A DNA stretch of 64,000 bases from Sphaerochaetaceae bacterium (GTDB lineage: Bacteria; Bacillota_I; Bacilli_A; RF39; UBA660). A program made the position numbers and the translations under genes. The notes under the pieces are model-generated. The model was given only the letters and a program-made list of their open reading frames with translations, was not told where the DNA came from and did no database searches. This document shows positions 20,381 through 28,818 of this stretch, piece after piece (position 1 is the first letter of the stretch; each line of letters starts with the position of its first letter). The DNA lies in contig CAVDHX010000024.1 in the NCBI GenBank assembly GCA_963609095.1, positions 7,126-71,125 of the forward strand. Direction: 5' to 3'.

Positions 20381-20466
20381 GCATGGATGGCGGAATGGTA
20401 GACGCGCTACTTTGAGGGGGTAGTGAGATATATCTCATGCGAGTTCAAGTCTCGTTCCATGCACCA
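20381..20466 (+). tRNA. tRNA-Leu (anticodon GAG), with encoded CCA
   Basis: Folds as a cloverleaf: acceptor gcatgga/tccatgc, D-arm GCGG-AATGGTAG-ACGC. The anticodon stem is ctact/ggtag with loop ttGAGgg. It has a long variable arm and T-arm gcgag-TTCAAGT-ctcgt. Closely parallels E. coli/Bacillus tRNA-Leu. Confidence 0.9.
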
Positions 20467-20571
20467 TTAGGGAACCTGTTCGGACTATTCGAGCTTTGAT
20501 ATATAGAAATCAATTGAAATGATTGATTTTTTTTGTTTTATAAGAAAAAAATCATAGAAGGGTTGATGTCT

Positions 20572-20845
20572 ATGATTAATGTAATCAAACAAGAAATTGA
20601 TATGGAGGAGTCTTTAAGAAAAAGATTAGAGATTATCTGTGATTTTTGTAATGCTACTCCAACGTTTTATAAATGGTAGTATAAGAAGAATTGATAAAAT
20701 TAATTTAAGTTACATTGAGCCACACAGAATTATTATTAATGATATGACTTTTTTTACTTTTAATTACTCTAATGGAATCTATATTAATAACTTGAGTAAA
20801 AAGATTAAACTAGCAGAACTTGAAAATTATATTAAATCACACTAA
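20572..20845 (+). pseudogene. frameshifted fragments of an unknown small gene downstream of tRNA-Leu
   Basis: A 34-codon ORF (MINVIKQEIDMEESLRKRLEIICDFCNATPTFYKW*) is immediately followed, in another frame, by a 68-codon ORF. No convincing RBS or product. Confidence 0.25.
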
Positions 20846-20885
20846 CTATTCCCTACAAAGATAGTGTAACAATTTATCGGAATCA

Positions 20886-21332
20886 TTAGAAAATGGTACC
20901 AGAATTTAAAACTTTATTTATGATTATGAAAATGGGATTAGCTGAAGTACAAACAGGTAAATTAGATACTGATTTATCAAAAATTGCAAAGCTAATCTCT
21001 TTTTCATTATAAGTATAGTTATCTTTTTGATATGATAATTTAAGATAATAATCTAATATGTTTATATTATTAAGTGATGCTTCTTGATATTTTAAATAAG
21101 TTTGGATATATTTATCTGAGTACGCTTTAGGTCTAGAACCAAAATGTGATGCAATACAATGAGAAATATGGGATTCCATAGAGGATTTAATATCTGAATA
21201 TTTCATGGCAATAATACCTTTCCAATGTTTAATGATGTAGTTTTTATATTCAGTAATTTTATCTTTTCTTGTCTGTTTGTCCTTTGATTCAATAATCTCA
21301 TCTATAATTTTAATAAATTTTTTTTCTTTCAT
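20886..21332 (-). CDS. hypothetical protein, possibly a mobile-element (transposase-like) C-terminal remnant
   Basis: 148-156 aa ORF with no N-terminal catalytic region. The upstream 21357-21560 holds broken coding-like sequence. Sits next to the tRNA. Confidence 0.3.
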   Translation of the reverse strand: MKEKKFIKIIDEIIESKDKQTRKDKITEYKNYIIKHWKGIIAMKYSDIKSSMESHISHCIASHFGSRPKAYSDKYIQTYLKYQEASLNNINILDYYLKLSYQKDNYTYNEKEISFAIFDKSVSNLPVCTSANPIFIIINKVLNSGTIF

Positions 21333-21671
21333 CTGATTTTTTATAAGCCTTATCAATTAAGAAAATGAAGTCAACTATTAATTCAATAACCATCTCATTA
21401 ATTTCTTTTTGTAAATTCAAAAAAGAGTCTATGTATCTATGCGTTGATAAATTGTTAAAAATTGAATTTAAAATATCAATTAGTTTATATTTATTTTTTT
21501 TAAGGCCATATTAATATAAAAATTTTTTGTTTCATAATTTAAAATCTGTGATAAAATATTCGTAGAAAGAGCTCCTTTTTATTGTATTTATAGTGATATT
21601 ATATCACACTGAGTTCTTTCTTTTTTTTATTTTTTCCGATACTATGTTGCATTATCACTTATGCAAAATGA

Positions 21672-21700
21672 TTGACTAAAATGGAAATATATGGTACATT
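21672..21700 (+). promoter_or_regulatory. sigma-A-type promoter for the peptide/MccB-like operon
   Basis: TTGACT - 17 nt - TACATT. Confidence 0.45.
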
Positions 21701-21755
21701 AATTATAACTTGATGGAGCTGTTATTTCTATTAAGTGCGAAAGGTGGTTAAAACA

Positions 21756-21821
21756 TGAAAATTAGTGTTAAAAAATTAGCTGAAACACAATTTGCTTGCC
21801 ACGTAGATCAAAATTGCTAAT
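21756..21821 (+). CDS. candidate 21-aa precursor peptide MKISVKKLAETQFACHVDQNC
   Basis: An RBS (AAAGGTGG) lies 6 nt upstream of the ATG. The ORF is followed at once by a 9-bp stem hairpin and is directly upstream of an MccB-like enzyme. Confidence 0.45.
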
Positions 21822-21836
21822 TGATGCTAAACATTA

Positions 21837-21858
21837 AAGCCCATCTTCATGGGCTTTA
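21837..21858 (+). terminator. intra-operon hairpin, possibly a partial terminator or attenuator, between the peptide ORF and the MccB-like gene
   Basis: aaagcccat-cttc-atgggcttt, followed by a weak U-tract. Confidence 0.45.
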
Positions 21859-21889
21859 ATGTGTTTATAAAGGTATAAAGGAGATTTTT

Positions 21890-22939
21890 ATGAGAGTATT
21901 AATAAATCCTACTAAGCCATTTTATTTAAATGAAATCAAAAAATCAATCAGATGTGGTAATTTTTCAGAAACAGGGAAAGTAATTGATTATGAAGATGAA
22001 ATGTTTGTTAGTTTTTTTAAAGAACTGTCAAAATTTATTGACGTTAAAGATTTAGAAAATATTGCAAAAACTAAATATTCAATGAGTAGTAAGGATTTTA
22101 ACGAAATATTAAAATATTTGATGAATGAAAAATTTGTTATTACTGATGATGAATATAATAAAATATATAATTATGATAAATTATATAATAGACAAAATGC
22201 TTATTTCTTTATGGTGTCAGATGATAATAAAAATATTGATTTATATAAAAACAAAAATATTTTAATTTTAGGATTAGGAGGAATAGGCTCTAATGTTGCT
22301 GAACAATTAGTAAGAGCTGGGTTTTCTAATTTTATGCTTGTGGATTGTGATATTGTTGAAAGTTCTAATTTAATTAGACAAAATGCTTATTATTCAGATG
22401 ATATTGGTATGTCTAAAACTACTGCGTTATCAAGAAGATTAATGTTAATAAACAGTAGTATAAAAGTTAATAAATACAACACAAAAATATTTTCTAAAGC
22501 TGATGTGTTACAATATATAGAAAAAGCAGATTTCGTAATTTGTACTTTGGATAAACCATATAGAAAAATTAGAAGAATTATAAATTCAGCATGTGTAAAA
22601 TGTAATAAACCTGTTATTTTTTCCGGATTTGCTGAACACGTCGGTATGGTTGGACCTTTTGTTGTTCCTTATACAACCGCTTGTTTAGAATGTATAGATA
22701 AGCAAGATGCCGAAATACCATTTCAAAATGTAAAAATTGCTCCTTCGTTTGGACCTTTATGTAACATCATTTCTTGCATTGTAACAGCGGAAGTGATAAA
22801 TTATTTTGTAAAATATAATTCGTATAATTTAATAGGATGTACTTTAATGTTTAATATGATTAACTATAAAACGGAAATTATTAAATGGTATAAAAATCCG
22901 TCATGTAAAAAGTGTGGTGATAAAAATGATAGTAAGTAA
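21890..22939 (+). CDS. MccB-like ThiF/E1-family peptide adenylyltransferase
   Basis: 349 aa. An N-terminal ~100-aa extension (peptide-clamp-like) precedes the Rossmann motif ILILGLGGIGSNVAEQLVRAGF...LVDCDIVESSNLIRQ. VGPFVVPYTTACLEC (CxxC) and a C-terminal SCKKCGDK (CxxC) mirror the MccB FGPLYVPGKTGCYEC...CSVCGNRM tetracysteine. Confidence 0.8.
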   Translation: MRVLINPTKPFYLNEIKKSIRCGNFSETGKVIDYEDEMFVSFFKELSKFIDVKDLENIAKTKYSMSSKDFNEILKYLMNEKFVITDDEYNKIYNYDKLYNRQNAYFFMVSDDNKNIDLYKNKNILILGLGGIGSNVAEQLVRAGFSNFMLVDCDIVESSNLIRQNAYYSDDIGMSKTTALSRRLMLINSSIKVNKYNTKIFSKADVLQYIEKADFVICTLDKPYRKIRRIINSACVKCNKPVIFSGFAEHVGMVGPFVVPYTTACLECIDKQDAEIPFQNVKIAPSFGPLCNIISCIVTAEVINYFVKYNSYNLIGCTLMFNMINYKTEIIKWYKNPSCKKCGDKNDSK

Positions 22940-24545
22940 TTTAAGTAAAAATATTAGTGGAAGAGATTTACTTGATAATATGAGTTTTAGTTTAAATGTT
23001 GGCAATAAGGTTGGATTAATAGGTAAAAACGGTGTGGGGAAATCAACTTTGTTAAAAATTCTGTCTGGCGATTTACTTTGTGATTCTGGTAAGATTAATT
23101 TAAATGGTCAAAAGGTAAAAATGTTAAAACAAGAAATTTCTAAAGATGATTATGATTATAGTATTATTGATTATATAAAAAAAGAAAATAATATTTTAAA
23201 TCTCGAAAAAAGATTACACGAATTAGAAACAAATTTAAATGATGATAACATGGAAGAATATGGTGATATACTAGATCAATATTTAGGTTTAGATGGTTAT
23301 AATTTTGAAAATAATTTAGGAATGGTTTTAAATGGCCTTAAATTAGATATAGATATTAATAAAAAAGTCGAAACATTATCTGGAGGACAAAAGATAAAAA
23401 TATTACTTGCTAGTTTACTTTTAAGTAATGCTGATATATTACTTTTAGATGAACCTACCAATAATTTGGATATTGAAGCTATAGAATGGCTAGAAAATTA
23501 TCTTATAAAATTAGAAAAGCAAATGATAATTGTTTCTCATGATGAAGAATTCTTAAACAATGTAACTAATAAAATTTTTGAATTAGAAAATGGTAAAATT
23601 ACTGAATATAATTTAAGTTATTCTGATTATTTAAATTATAAAGATATGGAATATAATCATAAACTAGAACAATATGAACAAGCCCAAGAACAAAAGAAAA
23701 AAATAAAGGTCCAAATTCAAGAAGCTAAAGAATGGTCAAATAAAGGTTTCTCATCAAAAAAGAAAGATAATGATAAAATAGCCGCTAACTTTGCTAAAGA
23801 AAGAACTAAAAAAACATCTGCAAAAGTATCAGGATTATCAAAAGAACTGGAAAAAATAGAAATTGACTCTAATTTTAGAAAACGTGAAGCCATTAATTTT
23901 ACTGTAGATTACTCAGATATAACAGGAAATGGCGATATTTATATTGAAGATTTAGTATGTGGCTATAATGATTTTAAAATACCATCTATAAAAGTAGATA
24001 TTCCATTTGGAACTAGAATACAAATATACGGTAAAAATGGTAGTGGTAAAACGACATTTATAAAAACACTTTTAAATGAAATTAAACCTATTAGTGGAAA
24101 AGTATATATAGGAAATGATGTTAAATTTGGATATATTTCTCAAGATAGTTTAGAAACCAATTCTGCAAATCTTTCAATATATGATTATTTGTCACAAAAT
24201 ACTGGCATTGATAAGAGCATGTTGTTTAATATTCTTAATAAATTTCATATAGCGTATGAAGATAAAGATAAACCTTATTTGACTTTATCACCAGGTCAAA
24301 GGACTAGAGTCAATTTGGCTAAATTAGCTATAAATAAAATTAATACATTAATATTAGATGAAGCAACTAATCATTTAGATATAGAAGCAATTCATGTGCT
24401 AGAAGAAGTTATTGATACATTTAATGGAACAATCATTAGTATTTCTCATAATAGAGCTTTTAACGAATATTTAAAGTCTGATGTTATTTTAAATATTGAA
24501 GATGCTAGTTTGACATATCCAGATAAAAAAGTAAAAAAAAAATGA
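22926..24545 (+). CDS. ABC-F family ATPase (tandem NBDs, no TMD), ribosome-associated and ARE-like
   Basis: Two Walker A motifs (GKNGVGKST, GKNGSGKTT) and two signature/Walker B sets, joined by a ~90-aa charged linker. Its ATG overlaps the upstream stop by 14 nt, with a GGTGA RBS. Confidence 0.85.
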   Translation: MIVSNLSKNISGRDLLDNMSFSLNVGNKVGLIGKNGVGKSTLLKILSGDLLCDSGKINLNGQKVKMLKQEISKDDYDYSIIDYIKKENNILNLEKRLHELETNLNDDNMEEYGDILDQYLGLDGYNFENNLGMVLNGLKLDIDINKKVETLSGGQKIKILLASLLLSNADILLLDEPTNNLDIEAIEWLENYLIKLEKQMIIVSHDEEFLNNVTNKIFELENGKITEYNLSYSDYLNYKDMEYNHKLEQYEQAQEQKKKIKVQIQEAKEWSNKGFSSKKKDNDKIAANFAKERTKKTSAKVSGLSKELEKIEIDSNFRKREAINFTVDYSDITGNGDIYIEDLVCGYNDFKIPSIKVDIPFGTRIQIYGKNGSGKTTFIKTLLNEIKPISGKVYIGNDVKFGYISQDSLETNSANLSIYDYLSQNTGIDKSMLFNILNKFHIAYEDKDKPYLTLSPGQRTRVNLAKLAINKINTLILDEATNHLDIEAIHVLEEVIDTFNGTIISISHNRAFNEYLKSDVILNIEDASLTYPDKKVKKK

Positions 24546-24675
24546 AAAAAGTATAAATATTATATAGAGTTGATGCAAATATTTTTTAACATTATAATTA
24601 ATACATCAAATACAATTGAACTTTTTACCAAAGTATGCATAGTCTCTTCAGTAAACTCTCCATTATGAAATTAAC

Positions 24676-24700
24676 CCTTGAATATCAAGGACTTTTTTTT
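24676..24700 (+). terminator. Rho-independent terminator after the ABC-F gene
   Basis: ccttga-ata-tcaagg followed by a T8 run. Confidence 0.6.
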
Positions 24701-25155
24701 ATGTTTTAATTTAATTAGGTACAAATCAAGTATATTTTTACAATTAACTTTTTCCTCCTAGCTTATTTTAGTTGAATTTTAACCATTGTATTGTTTATAA
24801 TCAACTTATAGAGTAAGGGGTTGTTTTTGTATATCCGAAATCATTTTACATTATCAGATGAAAAGTCTGATGTTATTTATATTTATGATAATATAGTTGT
24901 TTTTTGTGTTGGGCAAATCGAACAATAAAATTATGATAAAGCATATAGTAGATATAAAAATAGTGTTTTAACGTGGAAGAACAATTTGTGAAATCATATT
25001 TATATTAAAAATTTATAAAAGTATTAAAAAGAATTACTGTATAAAAAATTGCTGTCATTATGTTAGTATTTTTTTCATTCAACAATTATATTTTAATTTG
25101 AAATATGCTATTTTAAAGTCCTATTGATAAAGTTATAATTATGAATTTTTTGGTT

Positions 25156-25584
25156 TTAATTTAATATGTAAATGCCATACGTTAAGTATGATGCAAATAA
25201 TAACCATATTATGTATGGTATATTAATATATGCTGATATTTTATTTACCTTGTAAAATTTATAAATCATTATTACGACAATTATTAGTAATATTATAATC
25301 CAAATTAATGCGAATAAATACCATTTAAATATGAAGAAGATAATTGGCCAAATACCATTTATGATTAAATTTGTATAGTATATTTCTTTGTTTTTGTTGT
25401 TTTGTAAATAAAAACTTATACCCATTAAAATGTATAAAATAGTCCATGCAATTGGAAAGATAATTCCTGGTGGTGAAAATAAAGGCTTTGATATATTTTG
25501 ATAATTCATAAATGGACTTATAATTATTCCTATAAAGATACCCATAATTAATGGTATAGCTATATTTTTTAATAAATTTTTCAT
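25156..25584 (-). CDS. tspO: TspO/MBR family tryptophan-rich sensory protein
   Basis: 142-aa 5-TM protein carrying PPGIIFPIAWTILYILMG, which matches the TspO PxWxFxPxWT(x)LY motif. Confidence 0.7.
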   Translation of the reverse strand: MKNLLKNIAIPLIMGIFIGIIISPFMNYQNISKPLFSPPGIIFPIAWTILYILMGISFYLQNNKNKEIYYTNLIINGIWPIIFFIFKWYLFALIWIIILLIIVVIMIYKFYKVNKISAYINIPYIIWLLFASYLTYGIYILN

Positions 25585-25657
25585 GTTATCACCTATTATT
25601 ATAATATGTAAATGACAAAAAAATATAATTGTATTATAATATTTTACGTAGAGAGGA

Positions 25658-26011
25658 TTGATATTAATGGGGATGCTTACAAAGAGTAATAGGAATGAAG
25701 ATGATTTGTTAACTTTAAATTTAAATGATAGGAATTTTTCTATTTCTTTTGATAATGTTGAAAGGAAAATAAAATTAAATGAGAAAAGCTCAATTTTATT
25801 AGAAAAAGCTATTAAACAAAATTGTTTTTTAATTAAAAATGATAAATTGATTAAGGTAGGTAATTATAAAATAGTTTTAAAGAATGATGATGTAAGTAAG
25901 CTATGGTTAAAATCATTTGATAAATTAGTAGAATATAAGTTAATATTAAAAAATAATTCAAATTATATAGTTTCTGATAAAGGGAAAAAATATTTTAGAG
26001 AATATTGTTAA
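25658..26011 (+). CDS. hypothetical protein
   Basis: 117-aa ORF divergent from tspO. No recognisable motifs. Confidence 0.35.
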   Translation: MILMGMLTKSNRNEDDLLTLNLNDRNFSISFDNVERKIKLNEKSSILLEKAIKQNCFLIKNDKLIKVGNYKIVLKNDDVSKLWLKSFDKLVEYKLILKNNSNYIVSDKGKKYFREYC

Positions 26012-26095
26012 CATTATTTTTATAAATAATGTTTTTTTGTTTTTTTGAAGGAATTTGCAATTTTACGTCGTATATTAATAAGTGAGGAGGTTAAA

Positions 26096-26782
26096 ATGGA
26101 AATATTGAATATTATAAATCTAACAAAGAAATATAAAAATGGAACTGATGAATTGTATGCATTAGATAATATTAATTTTAAAGTAAAAAAGGGTGAATTT
26201 GTTATTATAACTGGTAAAAGTGGAAGTGGTAAAAGTACTCTTTTACACTTAATAGGGGGATTAGATTTTCCAACAAGTGGAACTGTTTTGGTTAATAATA
26301 CAGATATTTATAAGTTAAATGATAAAAATTTGACTATTTTTAGAAGAAAGTATATTGGAATTATATATCAATTTTATAATTTAATTCCTGTTTTGAATGT
26401 TTTTGAAAATATTATTTTACCGGCTTTATTTGATAAAAGAAAAATAAATGAAGAAAAAATTAATAATTTATTAAATAAATTAGGACTTAATGGTAAGAAT
26501 GATTATTTGCCAAATGATTTATCAGGTGGTGAACAACAAAGAGTTGCGATTGCTAGAGCTTTAATTAATCGGCCTAAATTGGTTTTAGCTGATGAACCAA
26601 CTGGGGCTTTAGATAGTAAAAATAGTAAATATATAATGAAATTATTAAGGTTTTATAATAAGAAATATAAGCAAACTATTATTATGGTAACTCACGATAC
26701 TTCTTTAGTTAGTTATGCCGATAGAATAATAACTATGTCTGATGGTAAGATAGAAAAGGATATTATTAATGATAAGCATTAA
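26096..26782 (+). CDS. ABC transporter ATP-binding protein (MacB/BceA-like)
   Basis: Walker A GKSGSGKST, signature LSGGEQQRVAIARAL, Walker B LVLADEPTGALD. RBS GAGGAGG. Confidence 0.85.
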   Translation: MEILNIINLTKKYKNGTDELYALDNINFKVKKGEFVIITGKSGSGKSTLLHLIGGLDFPTSGTVLVNNTDIYKLNDKNLTIFRRKYIGIIYQFYNLIPVLNVFENIILPALFDKRKINEEKINNLLNKLGLNGKNDYLPNDLSGGEQQRVAIARALINRPKLVLADEPTGALDSKNSKYIMKLLRFYNKKYKQTIIMVTHDTSLVSYADRIITMSDGKIEKDIINDKH

Positions 26783-28691
26783 ATTTTTAAAGAAAAATAA
26801 AAAGCAAACAATTACTATGGTTATGGGCATTATTTTATCAAGTGTTTTACTTTTTAGTATTGGCATTTTATTTTCTTCATTTAGAAATTTTATGATAGAA
26901 GATGTTAAAAAAAATGTTGGAAATTATCATGTAAAAATAGTTGGTAATATAAATGATGTAGATAAAAAACAAATTTTAAGTATAAAGAAAAAAAATGAGT
27001 ATTATATAAGATTTAAAAATATAAAAAATGTATATAGTTATACTGAAAATATTTGTGAAAAAAATCAATGTTTAGAGGTTATTTATAATACAAAATTGCT
27101 TTCTTTATATGGTGTTACTGATAATGATAATTTATTAAGTATATTCAAGAAAATTATAACGTTAATTGTTTTGATTTTATCGTTGGCTGTGTTTTTTATT
27201 GTTTATAATTCTTTTAATATTTCTTTAGTAAAACAAAAGCGAGATATATTTTTACTTAAAGTAAGTGGAGCTGATAATAGGTGCTTGTATAAAATTTATT
27301 TTTTTCAAGGAATTATTGTTGGATTGATTGGCATAATAATTGGTTTTTTAGTAAGTATGGTTATGAATATTTTTTCAATAAAGTTTATTAATTTGTTTTT
27401 ATATGAATTTTTTAGAGGAAGTTTAAAATTATCTATTTATTTTGATTTTATTTTAATACCGTTTTTTTTTATAATATTAATTGTTTTTTTGTCATCTTTA
27501 TTTCCACTTAGAAATTTGAATAAATATAAGATTGTTGATTTATATAATCCTATAAAAAACAATTATATAAATAAATATGATTTTAGGAAAAACTTTGTTT
27601 TAAATTATTCTCTTATAAATTATGAACGTGAGAAGCATAATTATAGAAATTTAATTATATGTTTATTTATCCTCTTATTTCTTTTTAATAGTTTTTTTTC
27701 GTTTATGCGATATACTTTTAAAATAATTAATGATTATGTTATTCTTCCAGAATATGATTTGTTAGTAAAAGCAGATATTGACGTGGTTAAAGATATTGAT
27801 AGAAAATTGGTTCCTAGTAAGTCTATTATATATAATTCATGTAATGGAAAGGTTCAAATAGCTAAAGATAAGTTTAATAAAAATCAAAAAGTGGGTAATG
27901 CTTTAATAACTAATTTAGGTGGTAATGAATTAATTAATTTTGTTTTTGAGGTAAAAAGTGAAAATGATTTGATGGTTAAAAATAATTATATTCCTTTTAA
28001 CAAATTGGATAAGGTTATATTGAATGATGAAAAATTATCTATTTCTTTAACTAATAAAATACCATTTGGATTTAAATCTTTATTAAAAAGTGATATTGTA
28101 ATTTTGAATTTAGATAATAATAATTTTTCTAAATTTTGTTTAAATTATGATACCATTGGTTATTTTAAAACTGATAAAAGTAATCTTGATGTATTTTTAA
28201 ATAATTATGCTATAAAAAATAATGTTGATTTAATTTATAGTAATGTTAAAAAAGCTAAACAAATTATTTCAAATATTGTTTTATTGATTAAAGTATTTAT
28301 TTATTTAATTATAGTTTTAATAATTTTAATATGTGTTACAACTATTTTTAATATTGTATCGGCTAATATTAAGTTTAGAAAAAGGGAACTTGCAAATTTA
28401 AAATCATTAGGTTTTTTAAATGTTAATATTGTTGAATTGTTATGCTTAGAATGTTTTATTATTACATTTAAAGCTTTTATTTATGCTTTACCATTTATTT
28501 TACTTGTATTTAAGTTTTTTTATAATAATCTTGGCAAAGTATTTAAATTAAATTTATCTATTTTTGATTATGAGCTTTTAACTGTAAGTTTTGTATTGTG
28601 TTTAATCATAGTTATTATATGTATGCTTTTAAGTTATATGTCTTTAATGAAGGAAAGTTTAATTATAAATATAAAACAGGAAATTTTTTAA
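26769..28691 (+). CDS. FtsX-family ABC permease with two FtsX modules and large extracytoplasmic domains (BceB-like)
   Basis: 640-aa polytopic membrane protein. It overlaps the ATPase gene. Confidence 0.7.
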
Positions 28692-28818
28692 AATTTCTTT
28701 TGATTTTCTTGCTTTTTTTAGTAAACTCATGTATATTATTATTGTACTTATTTCAAAGTTTAAAAGAACTCCATCTTTTTTTCTTGGATTTAAGCGTATT
28801 TATATAAAGGAGGATATT

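What the first reader, a model, noticed from the sequence alone, without database searches (positions are those of the whole stretch)
21672..24700. Compact MccB-like peptide-adenylation islet: promoter, 21-codon ORF, hairpin, E1/ThiF-like enzyme, coupled ABC-F ATPase
The 349-aa enzyme shares the defining architecture of microcin C synthetase MccB. It has an N-terminal ~100-aa extension, a ThiF Rossmann core, and a tetracysteine pair (VGPFVVPYTTACLEC...SCKKCGDK) that aligns with MccB FGPLYVPGKTGCYEC...CSVCGNRM. It is preceded by its own promoter, a 21-aa ORF, and a stable hairpin, an arrangement known from the mccA-mccB junction. There it yields excess peptide mRNA. No exporter, acetyltransferase or peptidase immunity genes follow. 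The only partner is a translationally coupled ABC-F protein, an arrangement I have not seen described for McC-like loci. The unit sits next to tRNA-Leu and degraded mobile-element ORFs, so it looks like an acquired islet. It may be a new peptide-nucleotide RiPP variant.
Basis: partly seen in the sequence, partly recalled or inferred. Interest (0 to 1): 0.85.

Follow-up and report, generated by a model that had tools for sequence, protein, structure and literature searches.

The report
Mobile peptide-modification cassette with ribosome-protection partner
A 3-kb mobile gene cassette from an uncultured gut bacterium encodes a 21-residue peptide with an invariant tail (CHVDQNC), a microcin-C-synthetase-like enzyme that most likely modifies it, and a ribosome-protection-type ATPase, which together look like an undescribed family of ribosomally made peptide products, probably aimed at the ribosome.

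Summary
The promoter, 21-codon ORF, hairpin, 349-aa E1-like enzyme and overlapping ABC-F gene are all present.

- **Cassette.** They form a 2.95-kb unit (window 21666-24611). It recurs at 78-90% DNA identity in other genomic contexts.
- **Peptide.** It is real. About 45 related loci carry a 20-26-aa ORF ending in CHVDQNC, with one N-to-H exception. Those codons vary otherwise only synonymously. A DNA scan for that core alone found 32 loci, and a ThiF-like gene followed in all 30 with enough DNA.
- **Enzyme.** By sequence profile and by full-length fold it is closest to MccB, not to MoeB or ThiF.
- **ABC-F.** It follows the enzyme in nearly every locus, usually with a 14-nt overlap. It has co-diverged with the enzyme (Mantel r 0.91). 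It survives alone when the enzyme decays.

It is not a microcin-C-type member, because the precursor ends in Cys rather than the defining Asn.

Best reading: this is a new family of ThiF-like RiPPs. The enzyme activates a carboxylate in the core with ATP, probably followed by thiol capture. ABC-F acts as target-protection immunity. The chemistry and the target are inferred, not shown.

I found no description of this family in the searched literature. Novelty: new variant of a known kind.

The parts
21666..24611 (+). Whole cassette as defined by DNA homology to the same unit in other genomic contexts
   Evidence: blastn gives 90% identity over 2949 bp to L094 and 78% over window 21665-24550 to L004, with unrelated flanks.
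21672..21700 (+). Sigma-70-type promoter: -35 TTGACT, 17-nt spacer, TGn, -10 TACATT
   Evidence: Found by the consensus scan. It is conserved in L094 and L004, and the inter-locus homology begins 6 nt upstream of the -35.
21741..21747 (+). Shine-Dalgarno sequence (AAGGTGG) of the peptide gene
   Evidence: Read directly from the sequence. Strong SD sequences precede the peptide ORF in all loci.
21755..21820 (+). Precursor peptide gene, 21 aa: leader MKISVKKLAETQF, then Ala at the variable position 14, then the invariant core CHVDQNC
   Evidence: The ORF is conserved in about 45 loci. The core codons vary only synonymously, apart from one N-to-H change.
21831..21862 (+). 14-bp hairpin followed by a U-rich stretch; a leaky terminator or RNA-stabilising element between the peptide and enzyme genes
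   Evidence: The fold has z = -4.9. A hairpin of differing sequence sits at the same place in 16 of 16 loci, and no antiterminator alternative was found.
21877..21883 (+). Shine-Dalgarno sequence (AAAGGAG) of the enzyme gene
   Evidence: Read directly from the sequence.
21890..22939 (+). MccB-like ThiF/E1-type adenylyltransferase, 349 aa. Residues 1 to about 95 form the N-terminal peptide clamp (RRE); the rest is the adenylation domain with GLGGIGS, R163, K176, D221 and the zinc motifs CxxC...CxxC
   Evidence: Pfam ThiF at 2e-48. MccB is the best PDB match by profile and by fold. Invariant residues are listed. The AF2 model has pLDDT 91.7.
22926..24545 (+). ABC-F ATPase, 539 aa from ATG 22926 (the ORF is open from GTG 22914). 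It has two NBDs, no membrane domain, catalytic E180 and E483, and a linker with an invariant DNDK. It overlaps the enzyme gene by 14 nt
   Evidence: NCBIfam NF000355 scores 390 bits against a cutoff of 380. Motifs are, the junction and linker conservation.
24676..24699 (+). Terminator-like stem (CCTTGAATATCAAGG) with a T-run after the ABC-F gene
   Evidence: Found by the consensus scan. It lies just outside the segment shared with L094, so it may belong to the local context.

Best explanation
This is a self-contained, horizontally mobile RiPP cassette of a previously undescribed ThiF-like (TLAT) family.

**Transcription.** One promoter drives a 21-aa precursor gene. A hairpin right after it probably ends or stabilises most transcripts, so that peptide mRNA exceeds enzyme mRNA, as in mccA-mccB. 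This step is inferred from anatomy.

**Modification.** Read-through RNA encodes a MccB-like enzyme. Its N-terminal clamp would bind the Lys-rich leader (MKFxVKK[LIV]xxxKF). Its E1-type active site would use ATP/Mg to adenylate a carboxylate in the invariant core CHVDQNC. The fold and catalytic residues are shown; the reaction is inferred. Because the peptide ends in Cys rather than Asn, the microcin C succinimide/phosphoramidate route is unlikely. The most parsimonious outcome is capture of the acyl-adenylate by one of the two invariant thiols, giving a thiolactone macrocycle. That would join either Cys15 to the C-terminal carboxylate (AIP-like) or Asp18 to Cys21 (GrcB-like). In about half of the family a methyltransferase-fold enzyme probably tailors the product further. 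The window copy lacks that gene.

**Self-protection.** The translationally coupled ABC-F is most likely a target-protection (immunity) factor. It would keep the producer's ribosomes working, which implies that the product acts on the ribosome.

**Step likelihoods.**
- Peptide is the enzyme's substrate: about 0.85.
- Product is cyclised rather than nucleotidylated: about 0.55.
- ABC-F acts as immunity against a ribosome-directed product: about 0.5.
For: **Peptide is a selected coding gene tied to the enzyme**
- 17 GTDB-genome loci, 32 metagenome loci and further contigs carry a peptide ending in CHVDQNC.
- The core codons show only synonymous variation: TGC/TGT 6:11, CAC/CAT 11:6, AAT/AAC 8:8, TGC/TGT 8:9.
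- A scan for the core DNA alone found 32 loci. A ThiF-like gene followed in all 30 that had enough downstream DNA.
- A second enzyme subfamily, only 28-33% identical, keeps the same core.

**Enzyme is MccB-like**
- Profile scores: MccB 201 bits, PaaA 112, MoeB 111.
- Fold: TM 0.81 over the full length to MccB.
- The ATP-binding and catalytic residues G128/G130/G131/G133, R163, K176 and D221 are conserved. Their spacing matches EnfB R167/K180/D225 (PMC12250964).

**Chemistry precedents**
- GrcB makes a Glu-Cys(C-terminal) thiolactone (PMC12596934).
- MccB given a non-Asn C-terminus forms a peptidyl-O-AMP that thiols capture as thioesters (PMC11118369).

**Hairpin**
- It is present in 16 of 16 loci, with different sequences.
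- The mccA-mccB precedent is PMC4231749.

**ABC-F**
- It is adjacent in every GTDB locus that had downstream DNA.
- A conserved 14-nt overlap links it to the enzyme gene.
- It has co-diverged with the enzyme: Mantel r 0.906, 0 of 2000 permutations.
- It passes the NCBIfam cutoff for ribosomal-protection-like ABC-F.
- Its best PDB sequence match is ExpZ (8buu). From memory, that entry is the resistance factor VmlR2.
- The linker is longer than in YbiT or YheS, and its centre carries an invariant DNDK.
- Decay pattern: the enzyme is broken but ABC-F intact in L012, L017/L110 and L023. An orphan ABC-F with its own promoter retains a remnant of the enzyme gene's 3' end in L083.

**Mobility**
- The same cassette sits in different contexts.
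- It occurs next to a serine recombinase inside a PBP gene.
- A subfamily-2 module lies beside a relaxase and MobC.
Against: - No chemistry, expression or activity has been measured. The product structure and the ribosomal target are inferences.
- The cassette has no exporter and no leader protease, so how a product would leave the cell is unexplained.
- An invariant core across enzymes as little as 28% identical is unusual for antibiotic RiPPs. It could equally fit a ribosome-arrest peptide, a cofactor or a metal-binding motif.
- The ABC-F belongs to no named resistance subfamily. It is at most 33% identical to any plasmid-borne ABC-F and scores almost as well against housekeeping YbiT, YheS and EttA.
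- One contig (L126) has an intact enzyme gene with only the first codons of ABC-F. L099 has a different downstream gene.
- The window copy lacks the 216-aa gene that its 92% relatives have, so it may make a different product or none.
- Orphan and decayed loci are few, and MAG assemblies can contain frameshift errors. The L017 break does recur in an independent assembly, L110.
Confidence: 0.6

Rival explanations
1. The short ORF is a regulatory leader (arrest) peptide. A ribosome stalling on CHVDQNC-stop would control the downstream terminator and so switch on an antibiotic-resistance ABC-F, as in the vga, msr and vmlR attenuators. The enzyme would be a passenger or a second resistance function.
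For: - The layout of promoter, uORF, terminator-like hairpin and downstream genes is the classic attenuator layout.
- ARE ABC-F genes are commonly regulated this way (established knowledge; see also PMC12421871 and PMC8546547).
- The invariant last seven residues would sit in the tunnel next to the peptidyl-transferase centre at termination, as in known arrest peptides (inference).
- In 5 of 16 loci the hairpin starts 2-4 nt after the stop codon, close enough for a terminating ribosome to melt it.
Against: - The peptide travels with the enzyme, not with ABC-F. It is present in L099 and in subfamily 2, where no ABC-F was detected. It is absent upstream of the orphan ABC-F, which has a plain promoter.
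- No antiterminator exists. The hairpin's 5' arm gains at most 3.8 kcal/mol with upstream RNA, against -6 to -20 kcal/mol for the hairpin itself.
- The distance from stop codon to hairpin varies from 2 to 24 nt.
- The N-terminal half of the peptide is also conserved (MKFxVKK..KF), as expected for a leader that binds an RRE.
- The enzyme has a full MccB-type peptide clamp.
Confidence: 0.12
2. The cassette makes a true microcin-C-type Trojan-horse peptide-nucleotide that poisons an aminoacyl-tRNA synthetase. This could happen after removal of the terminal Cys to expose Asn20, or by attaching a nucleotide to the penultimate Asn.
For: - MccB is the closest characterised enzyme by both sequence and fold.
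- The penultimate Asn is conserved in all peptides but one.
- The hairpin organisation is the same as in mcc.
- One variant locus (L099) replaces ABC-F with a 418-aa protein carrying HPNE...SLHNG. It has a faint resemblance to carboxypeptidase B (E = 0.45), which could trim the terminal Cys.
- The nearest outgroup enzyme (P0092) sits in a cluster with a methyltransferase and a GNAT, as in mcc.
Against: - The defining C-terminal Asn is absent from every peptide.
- No peptidase is part of the main cassette.
- An ABC-F would not protect against a tRNA-synthetase inhibitor. None of the known McC immunity types (MccC/E/F, HIT, S51) is present.
- McC peptides vary freely apart from the last residue, whereas here seven residues are fixed.
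- The carboxypeptidase resemblance is not significant.
Confidence: 0.1
3. The product is not an antibiotic. It would be a signalling peptide (an AIP-like thiolactone) or a metal-binding peptide with Cys/His/Asp/Cys ligands. The ABC-F would then have a regulatory or translational role rather than an immunity role.
For: - A thiolactone to the C-terminus would resemble staphylococcal AIPs. Enterofaecin-type and GRC-type TLAT products are suspected signals.
- CHxDxxC offers four metal ligands (inference).
- An ArsR-type regulator and an HMA P-type ATPase lie just upstream in two lineages.
- No exporter or protease is dedicated to the cassette.
- The ABCF protein LmrC acts as a signal transducer rather than in plain resistance (PMC8546547).
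Against: - No receptor kinase or regulator is consistently linked.
- Signalling peptides usually diversify between lineages, whereas this core is invariant.
- The HMA linkage is seen in only 2 of about 27 peptide lineages.
- ABC-F retention after loss of the enzyme fits a protective role better.
Confidence: 0.12
4. The enzyme is an ordinary ThiF/MoeB sulfur-carrier activator or a defence-system E1 (Cap2/Bil-like), and the short ORF is a chance ORF.
For: The top NCBIfam rows are ThiF and MoeB models. PADLOC E1-E2 models hit the Rossmann core. A rhodanese gene lies 1.5 kb upstream.
Against: - All ThiF and MoeB models score far below their cutoffs (110 against 275, 104 against 266).
- PADLOC hits cover only the generic E1 core.
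- No ThiS/MoaD, E2 or ubiquitin-like gene is present.
- The rhodanese lies outside the cassette and is not conserved in other loci.
- The ORF is conserved with synonymous-only variation.
Confidence: 0.02

Closest known systems
Microcin C system (mccA-mccB...; E. coli, Yersinia, Bacillus, Helicobacter)
   Same: - A very short precursor gene is followed by a terminator hairpin and then a MccB-type E1-like enzyme with an N-terminal peptide clamp and a CxxC...CxxC zinc site.
- MccB is the best structural and sequence match.
- Both are compact and mobile.
   Different: - The precursor ends in Cys, not the obligatory Asn.
- Seven core residues are fixed instead of one.
- No MccC, MccD, MccE or MccF is present.
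- The partner is an ABC-F, which is not among the known McC immunity mechanisms.
- Enzyme identity to E. coli MccB is only about 28% by tblastn.
GRC-type RiPPs (GrcA/GrcB, Streptococcus pneumoniae)
   Same: An RRE-ThiF enzyme acts on a precursor whose last residue is Cys, with an acidic residue a few positions upstream preceded by His (GrcA ...H34-E35...C39; here H16-V17-D18...C21). GrcB forms a carboxylate-to-Cys thiolactone.
   Different: No radical-SAM enzymes, standalone RRE, transporter or quorum-sensing operon are present. The acidic residue is Asp at i-3 rather than Glu at i-4. A second invariant Cys is present. Sequence relatedness to GrcB was not tested.
Enterofaecin (EnfA/EnfB) and IndA/IndF minimal TLAT clusters
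   Same: Both pair a 21-residue precursor with a single RRE-ThiF enzyme. Neither cluster encodes a leader peptidase. The catalytic Arg/Lys/Asp spacing is the same (R163/K176/D221 here, R167/K180/D225 in EnfB).
   Different: The core is WWIVI or NWYFI (hydrophobic, with Trp) rather than CHVDQNC. Those clusters carry transporters and Agr-like regulators and have no ABC-F.
Antibiotic-resistance (ARE) ABC-F proteins such as VmlR/VmlR2, Vga, Lsa, Msr, and producer-encoded OleB/CarA/LmrC
   Same: - The protein has two NBDs, no membrane domain, and both catalytic Glu residues.
- It has a long inter-domain linker.
- It passes NCBIfam NF000355.
- Its best PDB sequence match is ExpZ, 8buu. From memory, that entry is the resistance factor VmlR2.
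- Placement inside a biosynthetic cluster mirrors the producer self-protection seen for macrolides and lincosamides.
   Different: - It falls below the cutoff of every named ARE subfamily.
- It is at most 33% identical to any plasmid-borne ABC-F.
- It is linked to a RiPP enzyme rather than to a polyketide or lincosamide cluster.
- No resistance phenotype is known.

Membership tests
Microcin C-type peptide-nucleotide RiPPs | MccB-type E1-like enzyme with an N-terminal peptide clamp (RRE) next to the precursor gene | tested here: met
   The profile against PDB scores MccB at 201 bits over profile positions 58-343. Foldseek gives TM 0.81 over the full length.
Microcin C-type peptide-nucleotide RiPPs | Precursor ends in Asn, which is required for the succinimide intermediate and the N-P bond | tested here: not met
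   All peptides end in Cys, with Asn penultimate.
Microcin C-type peptide-nucleotide RiPPs | Intrinsic terminator or hairpin between the precursor and enzyme genes | tested here: met
   The hairpin lies at 21831-21862, and the 81-nt stretch containing it folds with z = -4.9. One is present in 16 of 16 loci.
Microcin C-type peptide-nucleotide RiPPs | Export or immunity genes of the MccC/MccE/MccF/HIT/S51 types | tested here: not met
   None is in the cassette or conserved in its flanks.
Microcin C-type peptide-nucleotide RiPPs | Product is a peptidyl-nucleotide that inhibits an aminoacyl-tRNA synthetase | not testable with these tools
   This requires LC-MS and enzymology.
ThiF-like (TLAT) RiPPs in the broad sense | RRE-ThiF fusion with an intact ATP site, plus an adjacent short precursor with a conserved core | tested here: met
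   GxGxxG, R163, K176 and D221 are conserved. The RRE-like N-domain is modelled at high confidence. The precursor is conserved.
GRC-type thiolactone RiPPs | C-terminal Cys with an upstream acidic residue in the core | tested here: met
   D18 and C21 are invariant.
GRC-type thiolactone RiPPs | Radical-SAM partners, a standalone RRE and a quorum-sensing operon | tested here: not met
   These are absent from all loci.
ARE / ribosomal-protection ABC-F | Two ABC NBDs joined by a linker, with no transmembrane domain | tested here: met
   Pfam finds ABC_tran twice plus ABC_tran_Xtn. Walker A motifs are at 37 and 373, and the catalytic Glu residues are E180 and E483.
ARE / ribosomal-protection ABC-F | Passes the curated model for ribosomal-protection-like ABC-F | tested here: met
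   NF000355 scores 390.4 bits against a cutoff of 380, a narrow pass.
ARE / ribosomal-protection ABC-F | Membership of a named resistance subfamily (Vga, Msr, Lsa, Sal, OptrA, CplR, producer type) | tested here: not met
   All score far below their cutoffs, for example Vga at 284 against 725. Identity to any plasmid-borne ABC-F is at most 33%.
ARE / ribosomal-protection ABC-F | Binds the ribosomal E site and confers resistance to a ribosome-targeting compound | not testable with these tools
   This requires genetics, cryo-EM and in vitro translation.
ThiF/MoeB sulfur-carrier activators | Passes the ThiF or MoeB equivalog cutoffs and has a ThiS/MoaD partner ending in Gly-Gly | tested here: not met
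   TIGR02356 scores 110 against 275 and NF004281 scores 104 against 266. No ThiS or MoaD gene is present.
Leader-peptide transcription attenuator of ARE ABC-F genes | uORF followed by a terminator upstream of the regulated gene | tested here: met
Leader-peptide transcription attenuator of ARE ABC-F genes | A competing antiterminator structure that involves the uORF region | tested here: not met
   The 5' arm gains at most 3.8 kcal/mol, against -6 to -20 kcal/mol for the hairpin.
Leader-peptide transcription attenuator of ARE ABC-F genes | The uORF co-occurs with the ABC-F gene it regulates | tested here: not met
   The orphan ABC-F lacks the uORF. The uORF is kept where no ABC-F was detected.

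The most novel reading that the evidence does not exclude
The cassette encodes the first RiPP class in which a single E1-like enzyme turns a 21-mer into a ribosome-targeting compound built on an invariant CHVDQNC warhead. The warhead would be a thiolactone-type macrocycle or an acyl-nucleotide that mimics a peptidyl-tRNA end. The producer would be protected by target protection from a dedicated, co-evolving ABC-F subfamily, not by efflux or drug modification. The whole unit would spread as a 3-kb cassette among uncultured gut Bacilli, leaving orphan ABC-F resistance genes behind.
Probability: 0.35. Interest if true: 0.85.

Novelty: new variant of a known kind. Interest (0 to 1): 0.7.

Why it matters
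ThiF-like RiPP enzymes are a fast-growing source of new peptide chemistry. Five reaction types are known, and each was found in a different cluster type.

This family adds a sixth candidate, with three unusual features:
- The seven-residue core is absolutely invariant, even between enzymes that share only 28% identity.
- The producers are uncultured, small-genome gut Bacilli, which isolate-based (RefSeq) genome mining largely misses.
- The dedicated partner is an ABC-F.

If the ABC-F is an immunity factor, the cassette points to a new ribosome-directed peptide made by human and animal gut bacteria. It would also point to a reservoir of ABC-F genes in the gut microbiome, some already orphaned, whose natural substrate is a peptide rather than a clinical drug.

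The system is small enough to test directly. One synthetic peptide, one enzyme and one ATPase suffice.

Tried and rejected
- **Antiterminator search.** I folded the uORF plus the 5' arm in 16 loci and found nothing that competes with the hairpin.
- **Conserved exporter or protease.** The MacB-type ABC/FtsX pair 1.5 kb downstream in the window, the 117-aa ORF, TspO and the rhodanese are not conserved in other loci.
- **Phage carriage.** The core pattern gave 0 hits in viral contigs.
- **Defence-system reading.** PADLOC gives only generic E1 and ABC hits.
- **Distant relatives.** Distant ThiF-like loci (L021-L079) and the 444-aa outgroup P0092 have no ABC-F, so the pairing is specific to this family.
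- **The 216-aa gene.** Pfam and NCBIfam-style searches found nothing. Only the predicted fold was informative.
- **The 418-aa protein of L099.** It has no Pfam hit and only a non-significant resemblance to carboxypeptidase B. I do not rely on it.
- **The ORF after the subfamily-2 enzyme in L131.** It looks membrane-like but has no Pfam hit, and the contig ends there. The 'ABC exporter' idea is unverified.
- **Composition.** GC content does not mark the cassette as foreign; it is 22-29% throughout.
- **Literature.** No paper holds the core motif, and none links ABC-F or ABCF with MccB or ThiF.
- **Not attempted.** I did not place the ABC-F in a phylogeny with reference subfamilies, because no reference sequences were available offline.

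Full report

Yes. Window 21672-21700 holds TTGACT, a 17-nt spacer and TGn-TACATT. The 21-codon ORF MKISVKKLAETQFACHVDQNC lies at 21755-21820, behind an AAGGTGG Shine-Dalgarno (SD) sequence. A 14-bp hairpin spans 21831-21862. The 81-nt stretch containing it folds at -25 kcal/mol, z = -4.9, and none of 200 shuffles is as stable.

A 349-aa ORF at 21890-22939 matches Pfam ThiF at 2e-48. A 543-aa ABC-F ORF runs from 22914 to 24545. Its likely start is ATG 22926, which overlaps the last 14 nt of the enzyme gene.

tRNA-Leu is at 20381-20466. An ISLre2-like transposase fragment is at 20886-21356 on the minus strand. Promoter-like hexamers are not above chance in this 22-29% GC DNA, so the promoter rests on conservation, discussed below.

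**2. The unit is a conserved, mobile cassette.**

The enzyme has about 90 full-length relatives at 43-92% identity, all about 345 aa long and all from gut or rumen metagenomes and MAGs labelled Bacilli, Tenericutes or Erysipelotrichaceae. In every GTDB locus with downstream DNA, an ABC-F follows directly. The most common junction is ATGATAGTAA(A/G)TAA, a 14-nt overlap.

Flanking genes differ from locus to locus. At the DNA level the window matches L094, a 92% relative in a different genomic context, at 90% identity over exactly 21666-24611. It matches L004 at 78% over 21665-24550. The homology begins 6 nt before the -35 hexamer, and the -35, spacer and -10 are conserved.

Other copies show further signs of mobility. 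One lies next to a large serine recombinase inside a split PBP gene (L092). A diverged module lies beside a relaxase and MobC/NikA (L117).

In the window the cassette sits in a variable stretch between uppS-cdsA-rseP-rhodanese-tRNA-Leu and rpsO-pnp.

**3. The short ORF is a real gene and belongs with the enzyme.**

In 16 of 18 GTDB loci a 20-26-aa ORF with a strong SD lies 41-70 nt upstream of the enzyme. It ends in (K)F[A/S/E]CHVDQNC, with one HVDQHC variant. Further contigs add MTFTVKSVKNVEFACHVDQNC, MAIKVKAVKTVKFACHVDQNC, MAISVKKLKDVKFMCHVDQNC, MFTVKKLDEVKFACHVDQNC and MKIEIKNIEKIQTTCHVDQNC.

The core codons vary only synonymously: TGC/TGT 6:11, CAC/CAT 11:6, GTA/GTT 2:15, AAT/AAC 8:8 and TGC/TGT 8:9. 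Selection therefore acts on the peptide, not on the RNA.

As a test unbiased by the enzyme, I scanned metagenome contigs for the back-translated core alone. This gave 32 loci. All 30 with enough downstream DNA have a ThiF-like gene starting 50-140 nt after the peptide stop. Three of them (L108, L117, L131) carry 24-aa peptides (MIKSVKKVKAINDTPLLCHVDQNC, MIKNIKKMTKEEAIAVTCHVDQNC) with enzymes only 28-33% identical to the window's. The heptapeptide core is thus preserved across very distant enzymes.

**4. What the enzyme is.**

All NCBIfam ThiF and MoeB models score far below their cutoffs (110 against 275, 104 against 266). A family profile searched against PDB sequences puts MccB first at E = 2e-58 and 201 bits, covering profile positions 58-343. 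PaaA scores 112, MoeB 111 and ThiF 106. The single sequence gives the same order for MccB against MoeB, at 114 against 73 bits.

The AF2 model is confident (pLDDT 91.7, pTM 0.90). It shows an N-terminal beta/alpha module (strands 2-33, helices 37-79) ahead of the Rossmann core. Foldseek matches MccB over the full length at TM 0.81, PaaA at 0.72, and MoeB and ThiF only over the core at 0.56-0.59.

The ATP-site residues G128/G130/G131/G133, R163, K176 and D221, and the four zinc cysteines, are invariant or nearly so. The R/K/D spacing equals that of EnfB R167/K180/D225, which mutagenesis has shown to be essential (PMC12250964).

At the level of 50%-identity clusters, only about ten clusters score above 320 bits. 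The family then grades into roughly 1400 MccB-like proteins with E of 1e-30 or better.

**5. Why it is not a microcin C system, and what chemistry is likely.**

McC-type systems require a C-terminal Asn. MccB adenylates it, forms a succinimide and then builds the N-P bond (PMC12250964). Here every peptide ends in Cys.

All characterised ThiF-like RiPP enzymes adenylate a carboxylate, and a nucleophile then attacks it (PMC12596934; PMC12150305). Two precedents bear on this core:
- GrcB links Glu35 to the C-terminal Cys39 as a thiolactone, in a core with His34 next to the acidic residue.
- MccB given a non-Asn C-terminus makes a peptidyl-O-AMP that thiols efficiently capture as thioesters (PMC11118369).

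The core CHVDQNC has two invariant thiols, an invariant Asp and a free C-terminus. I therefore infer a thiolactone, either Cys15 to the C-terminal carboxylate or Asp18 to Cys21. This is inference. An imide, a retained nucleotide or a thiocarboxylate cannot be excluded.

**6. The hairpin.**

All 16 loci examined have a stem-loop of 5-17 bp between the peptide stop and the enzyme SD. The sequences are unrelated and the context is U-rich. This matches the mccA-mccB terminator, which yields an abundant, stable short mccA transcript (PMC4231749).

I tested the alternative of a switchable attenuator. The 5' arm gains at most 3.8 kcal/mol by pairing upstream, against -6 to -20 kcal/mol for the hairpin. 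The distance from stop codon to stem ranges from 2 to 24 nt.

**7. The ABC-F.**

*Features of the protein.* It has both Walker A/B sets and both catalytic glutamates, E180 and E483. It passes NF000355 (ribosomal protection-like ABC-F) narrowly, at 390 against 380 bits. It fails every named subfamily as well as EttA, Uup and YbiT.

*Closest relatives.* Its best PDB sequence match is ExpZ, 8buu, at 244 bits. YbiT (236), YheS (228) and EttA (220) are close behind. From memory, 8buu is the resistance factor VmlR2. Alignments show a linker about 15-25 residues longer than in YbiT or YheS, and about 10 shorter than in 8buu. From memory, the 303-residue spacing between the two Glu residues equals that of VmlR (E129/E432) and exceeds that of EttA (E188/E470). 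No plasmid-borne ABC-F exceeds 33% identity.

*Conservation and co-inheritance.* Within the family the centre of the linker is its best-conserved part and holds an invariant DNDK. Over 29 non-redundant loci, the pairwise identities of enzyme and ABC-F correlate (Mantel r = 0.906, 0 of 2000 permutations), so the two genes have been inherited together.

*Decay is asymmetric.*
- In L012, L023 and L017 (the last confirmed in the independent assembly L110), the enzyme is truncated or frameshifted while ABC-F is intact.
- In L016 everything is broken, including an internal deletion of the peptide.
- L083-L085 carry an orphan ABC-F, 72% identical to the window's. It has its own promoter and about 35 nt of the enzyme gene's 3' end, and no uORF or hairpin.
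- The converse was seen once, in contig L126. There an intact enzyme gene is followed by only the first codons of ABC-F and then unrelated DNA.

This pattern is what an immunity or resistance gene shows, although the numbers are small.

**8. Other members of the system.**

A 216-aa gene lies divergently upstream in most cases, and convergently downstream in L090 and L091. It occurs in about 20 of about 45 distinct loci, including L094 and L114, the 92% relatives of the window. The window has no trace of it. The family has only 31 clusters and no Pfam match. Its confident model (pLDDT 94) has a class I SAM-methyltransferase fold. The matches (TM 0.4-0.5, E about 2e-6) include SAM aminoalkyl transferases such as CntL and nicotianamine synthase. 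It is probably a tailoring enzyme, analogous in role to MccD or the carboxymethyltransferase of Bacillus McC. That is an inference.

Variant modules also exist:
- L099 has the peptide and enzyme followed by a 418-aa protein of unknown family.
- In subfamily 2 (L131) a membrane-like ORF follows the enzyme before the contig ends.
- L005 has a TldD/PmbA pair immediately after ABC-F.

No exporter or protease is general.

**9. Rivals.**

- *Regulatory leader peptide.* This is the most serious rival. It is weakened because the peptide follows the enzyme and not ABC-F. No antiterminator was found. The N-terminal half of the peptide is conserved, and the enzyme has a peptide clamp.
- *True McC-type Trojan horse.* This fails on the C-terminal residue and on the type of immunity gene.
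- *Signal or metal-binding peptide.* This cannot be excluded. The ArsR/HMA-ATPase neighbourhood in two lineages is noted but weak.
- *Ordinary ThiF/MoeB or a defence-system E1.* This is contradicted.

**10. Novelty.**

Reviews from 2025 list five TLAT chemistries: phosphoramidate, indolizidinone, thiolactone, cyclic imide and indolylamide. None has this core or an ABC-F. No paper in the library contains CHVDQNC, HVDQNC or VDQNC. None mentions ABC-F or ABCF together with MccB or ThiF. Known McC immunity mechanisms do not include ABC-F.

The kind (a ThiF-like RiPP cluster) is known. The core, the partner and the host range are new, so I rate it a new variant of a known kind. The chemistry and the target remain untested, and the window's copy lacks the accessory methyltransferase-fold gene.

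Noticed in passing
L094:6022-6672 (-), L114, L004:367-1023 (-) and about 17 other loci; absent from the window (the homologous position would be just left of 21666): A 216-aa gene found only with this cassette (31 protein clusters, no Pfam hit). It has conserved Cys motifs and a predicted class I SAM-methyltransferase fold. It lies divergently upstream of the peptide promoter in about half of the loci. The window's copy of the cassette has lost it and has IS fragments there instead.
   Followed up: yes
L092:499-7606: The cassette, a 66-aa ORF and a large serine recombinase (Resolvase/Recombinase/Zn_ribbon) sit between the two halves of a penicillin-binding-protein gene (PBP_dimer+Transpeptidase | Transpeptidase+PASTA). 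This looks like an intervening element that splits a PBP gene.
   Followed up: no
L083:4870-6623 (also L084, L085): An orphan ABC-F, 72% identical to the window's. It has its own TTGACT-17-TAAAAT promoter and about 35 nt left over from the 3' end of the enzyme gene (..KCGESK*). It has no peptide gene and no hairpin.
   Followed up: partly
L010, L017 (= L110), L016, all in the same genomic context: A decay series within one lineage. L010 is intact. L017 has a frameshifted enzyme with intact ABC-F. In L016 the peptide is shortened to MKFACHVDQNC by a deletion between two AAATTTG repeats, and both the enzyme and ABC-F are broken.
   Followed up: partly
L099:230-2702: A variant module. MKIEIKNIEKIQTTCHVDQNC and a 352-aa enzyme are followed not by ABC-F but by a 418-aa protein with HPNE...SLHNG motifs. 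It has no Pfam hit and only a non-significant resemblance to carboxypeptidase B (E = 0.45). The contig ends just after it.
   Followed up: partly
L131:6711-8348, L108, L117: A second, distant enzyme subfamily (28-33% identity) with 24-aa peptides that share the same CHVDQNC core. In L131 the next ORF is hydrophobic and overlaps the enzyme gene's stop codon. In L117 the module lies beside a MobA/VirD2 relaxase and MobC/NikA, so it is probably on a small mobilisable plasmid.
   Followed up: partly
L094:3444-5769, L080:13-2377, L003, L109, L124, L128: An ArsR-type regulator and an HMA-domain P-type ATPase (54% identical between lineages) lie immediately upstream of the cassette in two different peptide lineages. 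This could be a shared island or a hint of a link to metals, since the core offers Cys/His/Asp/Cys ligands.
   Followed up: partly
L005:9071-11720: A TldD/PmbA metalloprotease pair follows directly after the ABC-F gene. This protease type processes microcin B17. It was seen in this one locus only.
   Followed up: partly
window 22914-24545, residues 271-300 of the ABC-F ORF: The middle of the inter-domain linker (W.NKG..SK..DNDK.A.NFAKER) is better conserved than the helices around it. DNDK is invariant in 29 sequences. It is a candidate for the part that reaches into the ribosome.
   Followed up: partly
window 22900-22939: The conserved C-terminus of the enzyme (..CGDKNDSK*) is partly dictated by the overlapping ABC-F start. 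GGTGAT serves as its Shine-Dalgarno sequence, and AATGATAGTAAG encodes both N-D-S-K and M-I-V-S.
   Followed up: yes
window 20470-21660 and 24700-28700: The variable region around the cassette holds several elements. There is an ISLre2/Mbov_0401-like transposase fragment (20886-21356, minus strand) and short ORFs with no family. There is also a TspO/MBR gene (25156-25584, minus strand), a 117-aa ORF of unknown family, and a MacB-type ABC ATPase with an FtsX permease (26045-28691). None of these is conserved next to the cassette elsewhere.
   Followed up: partly
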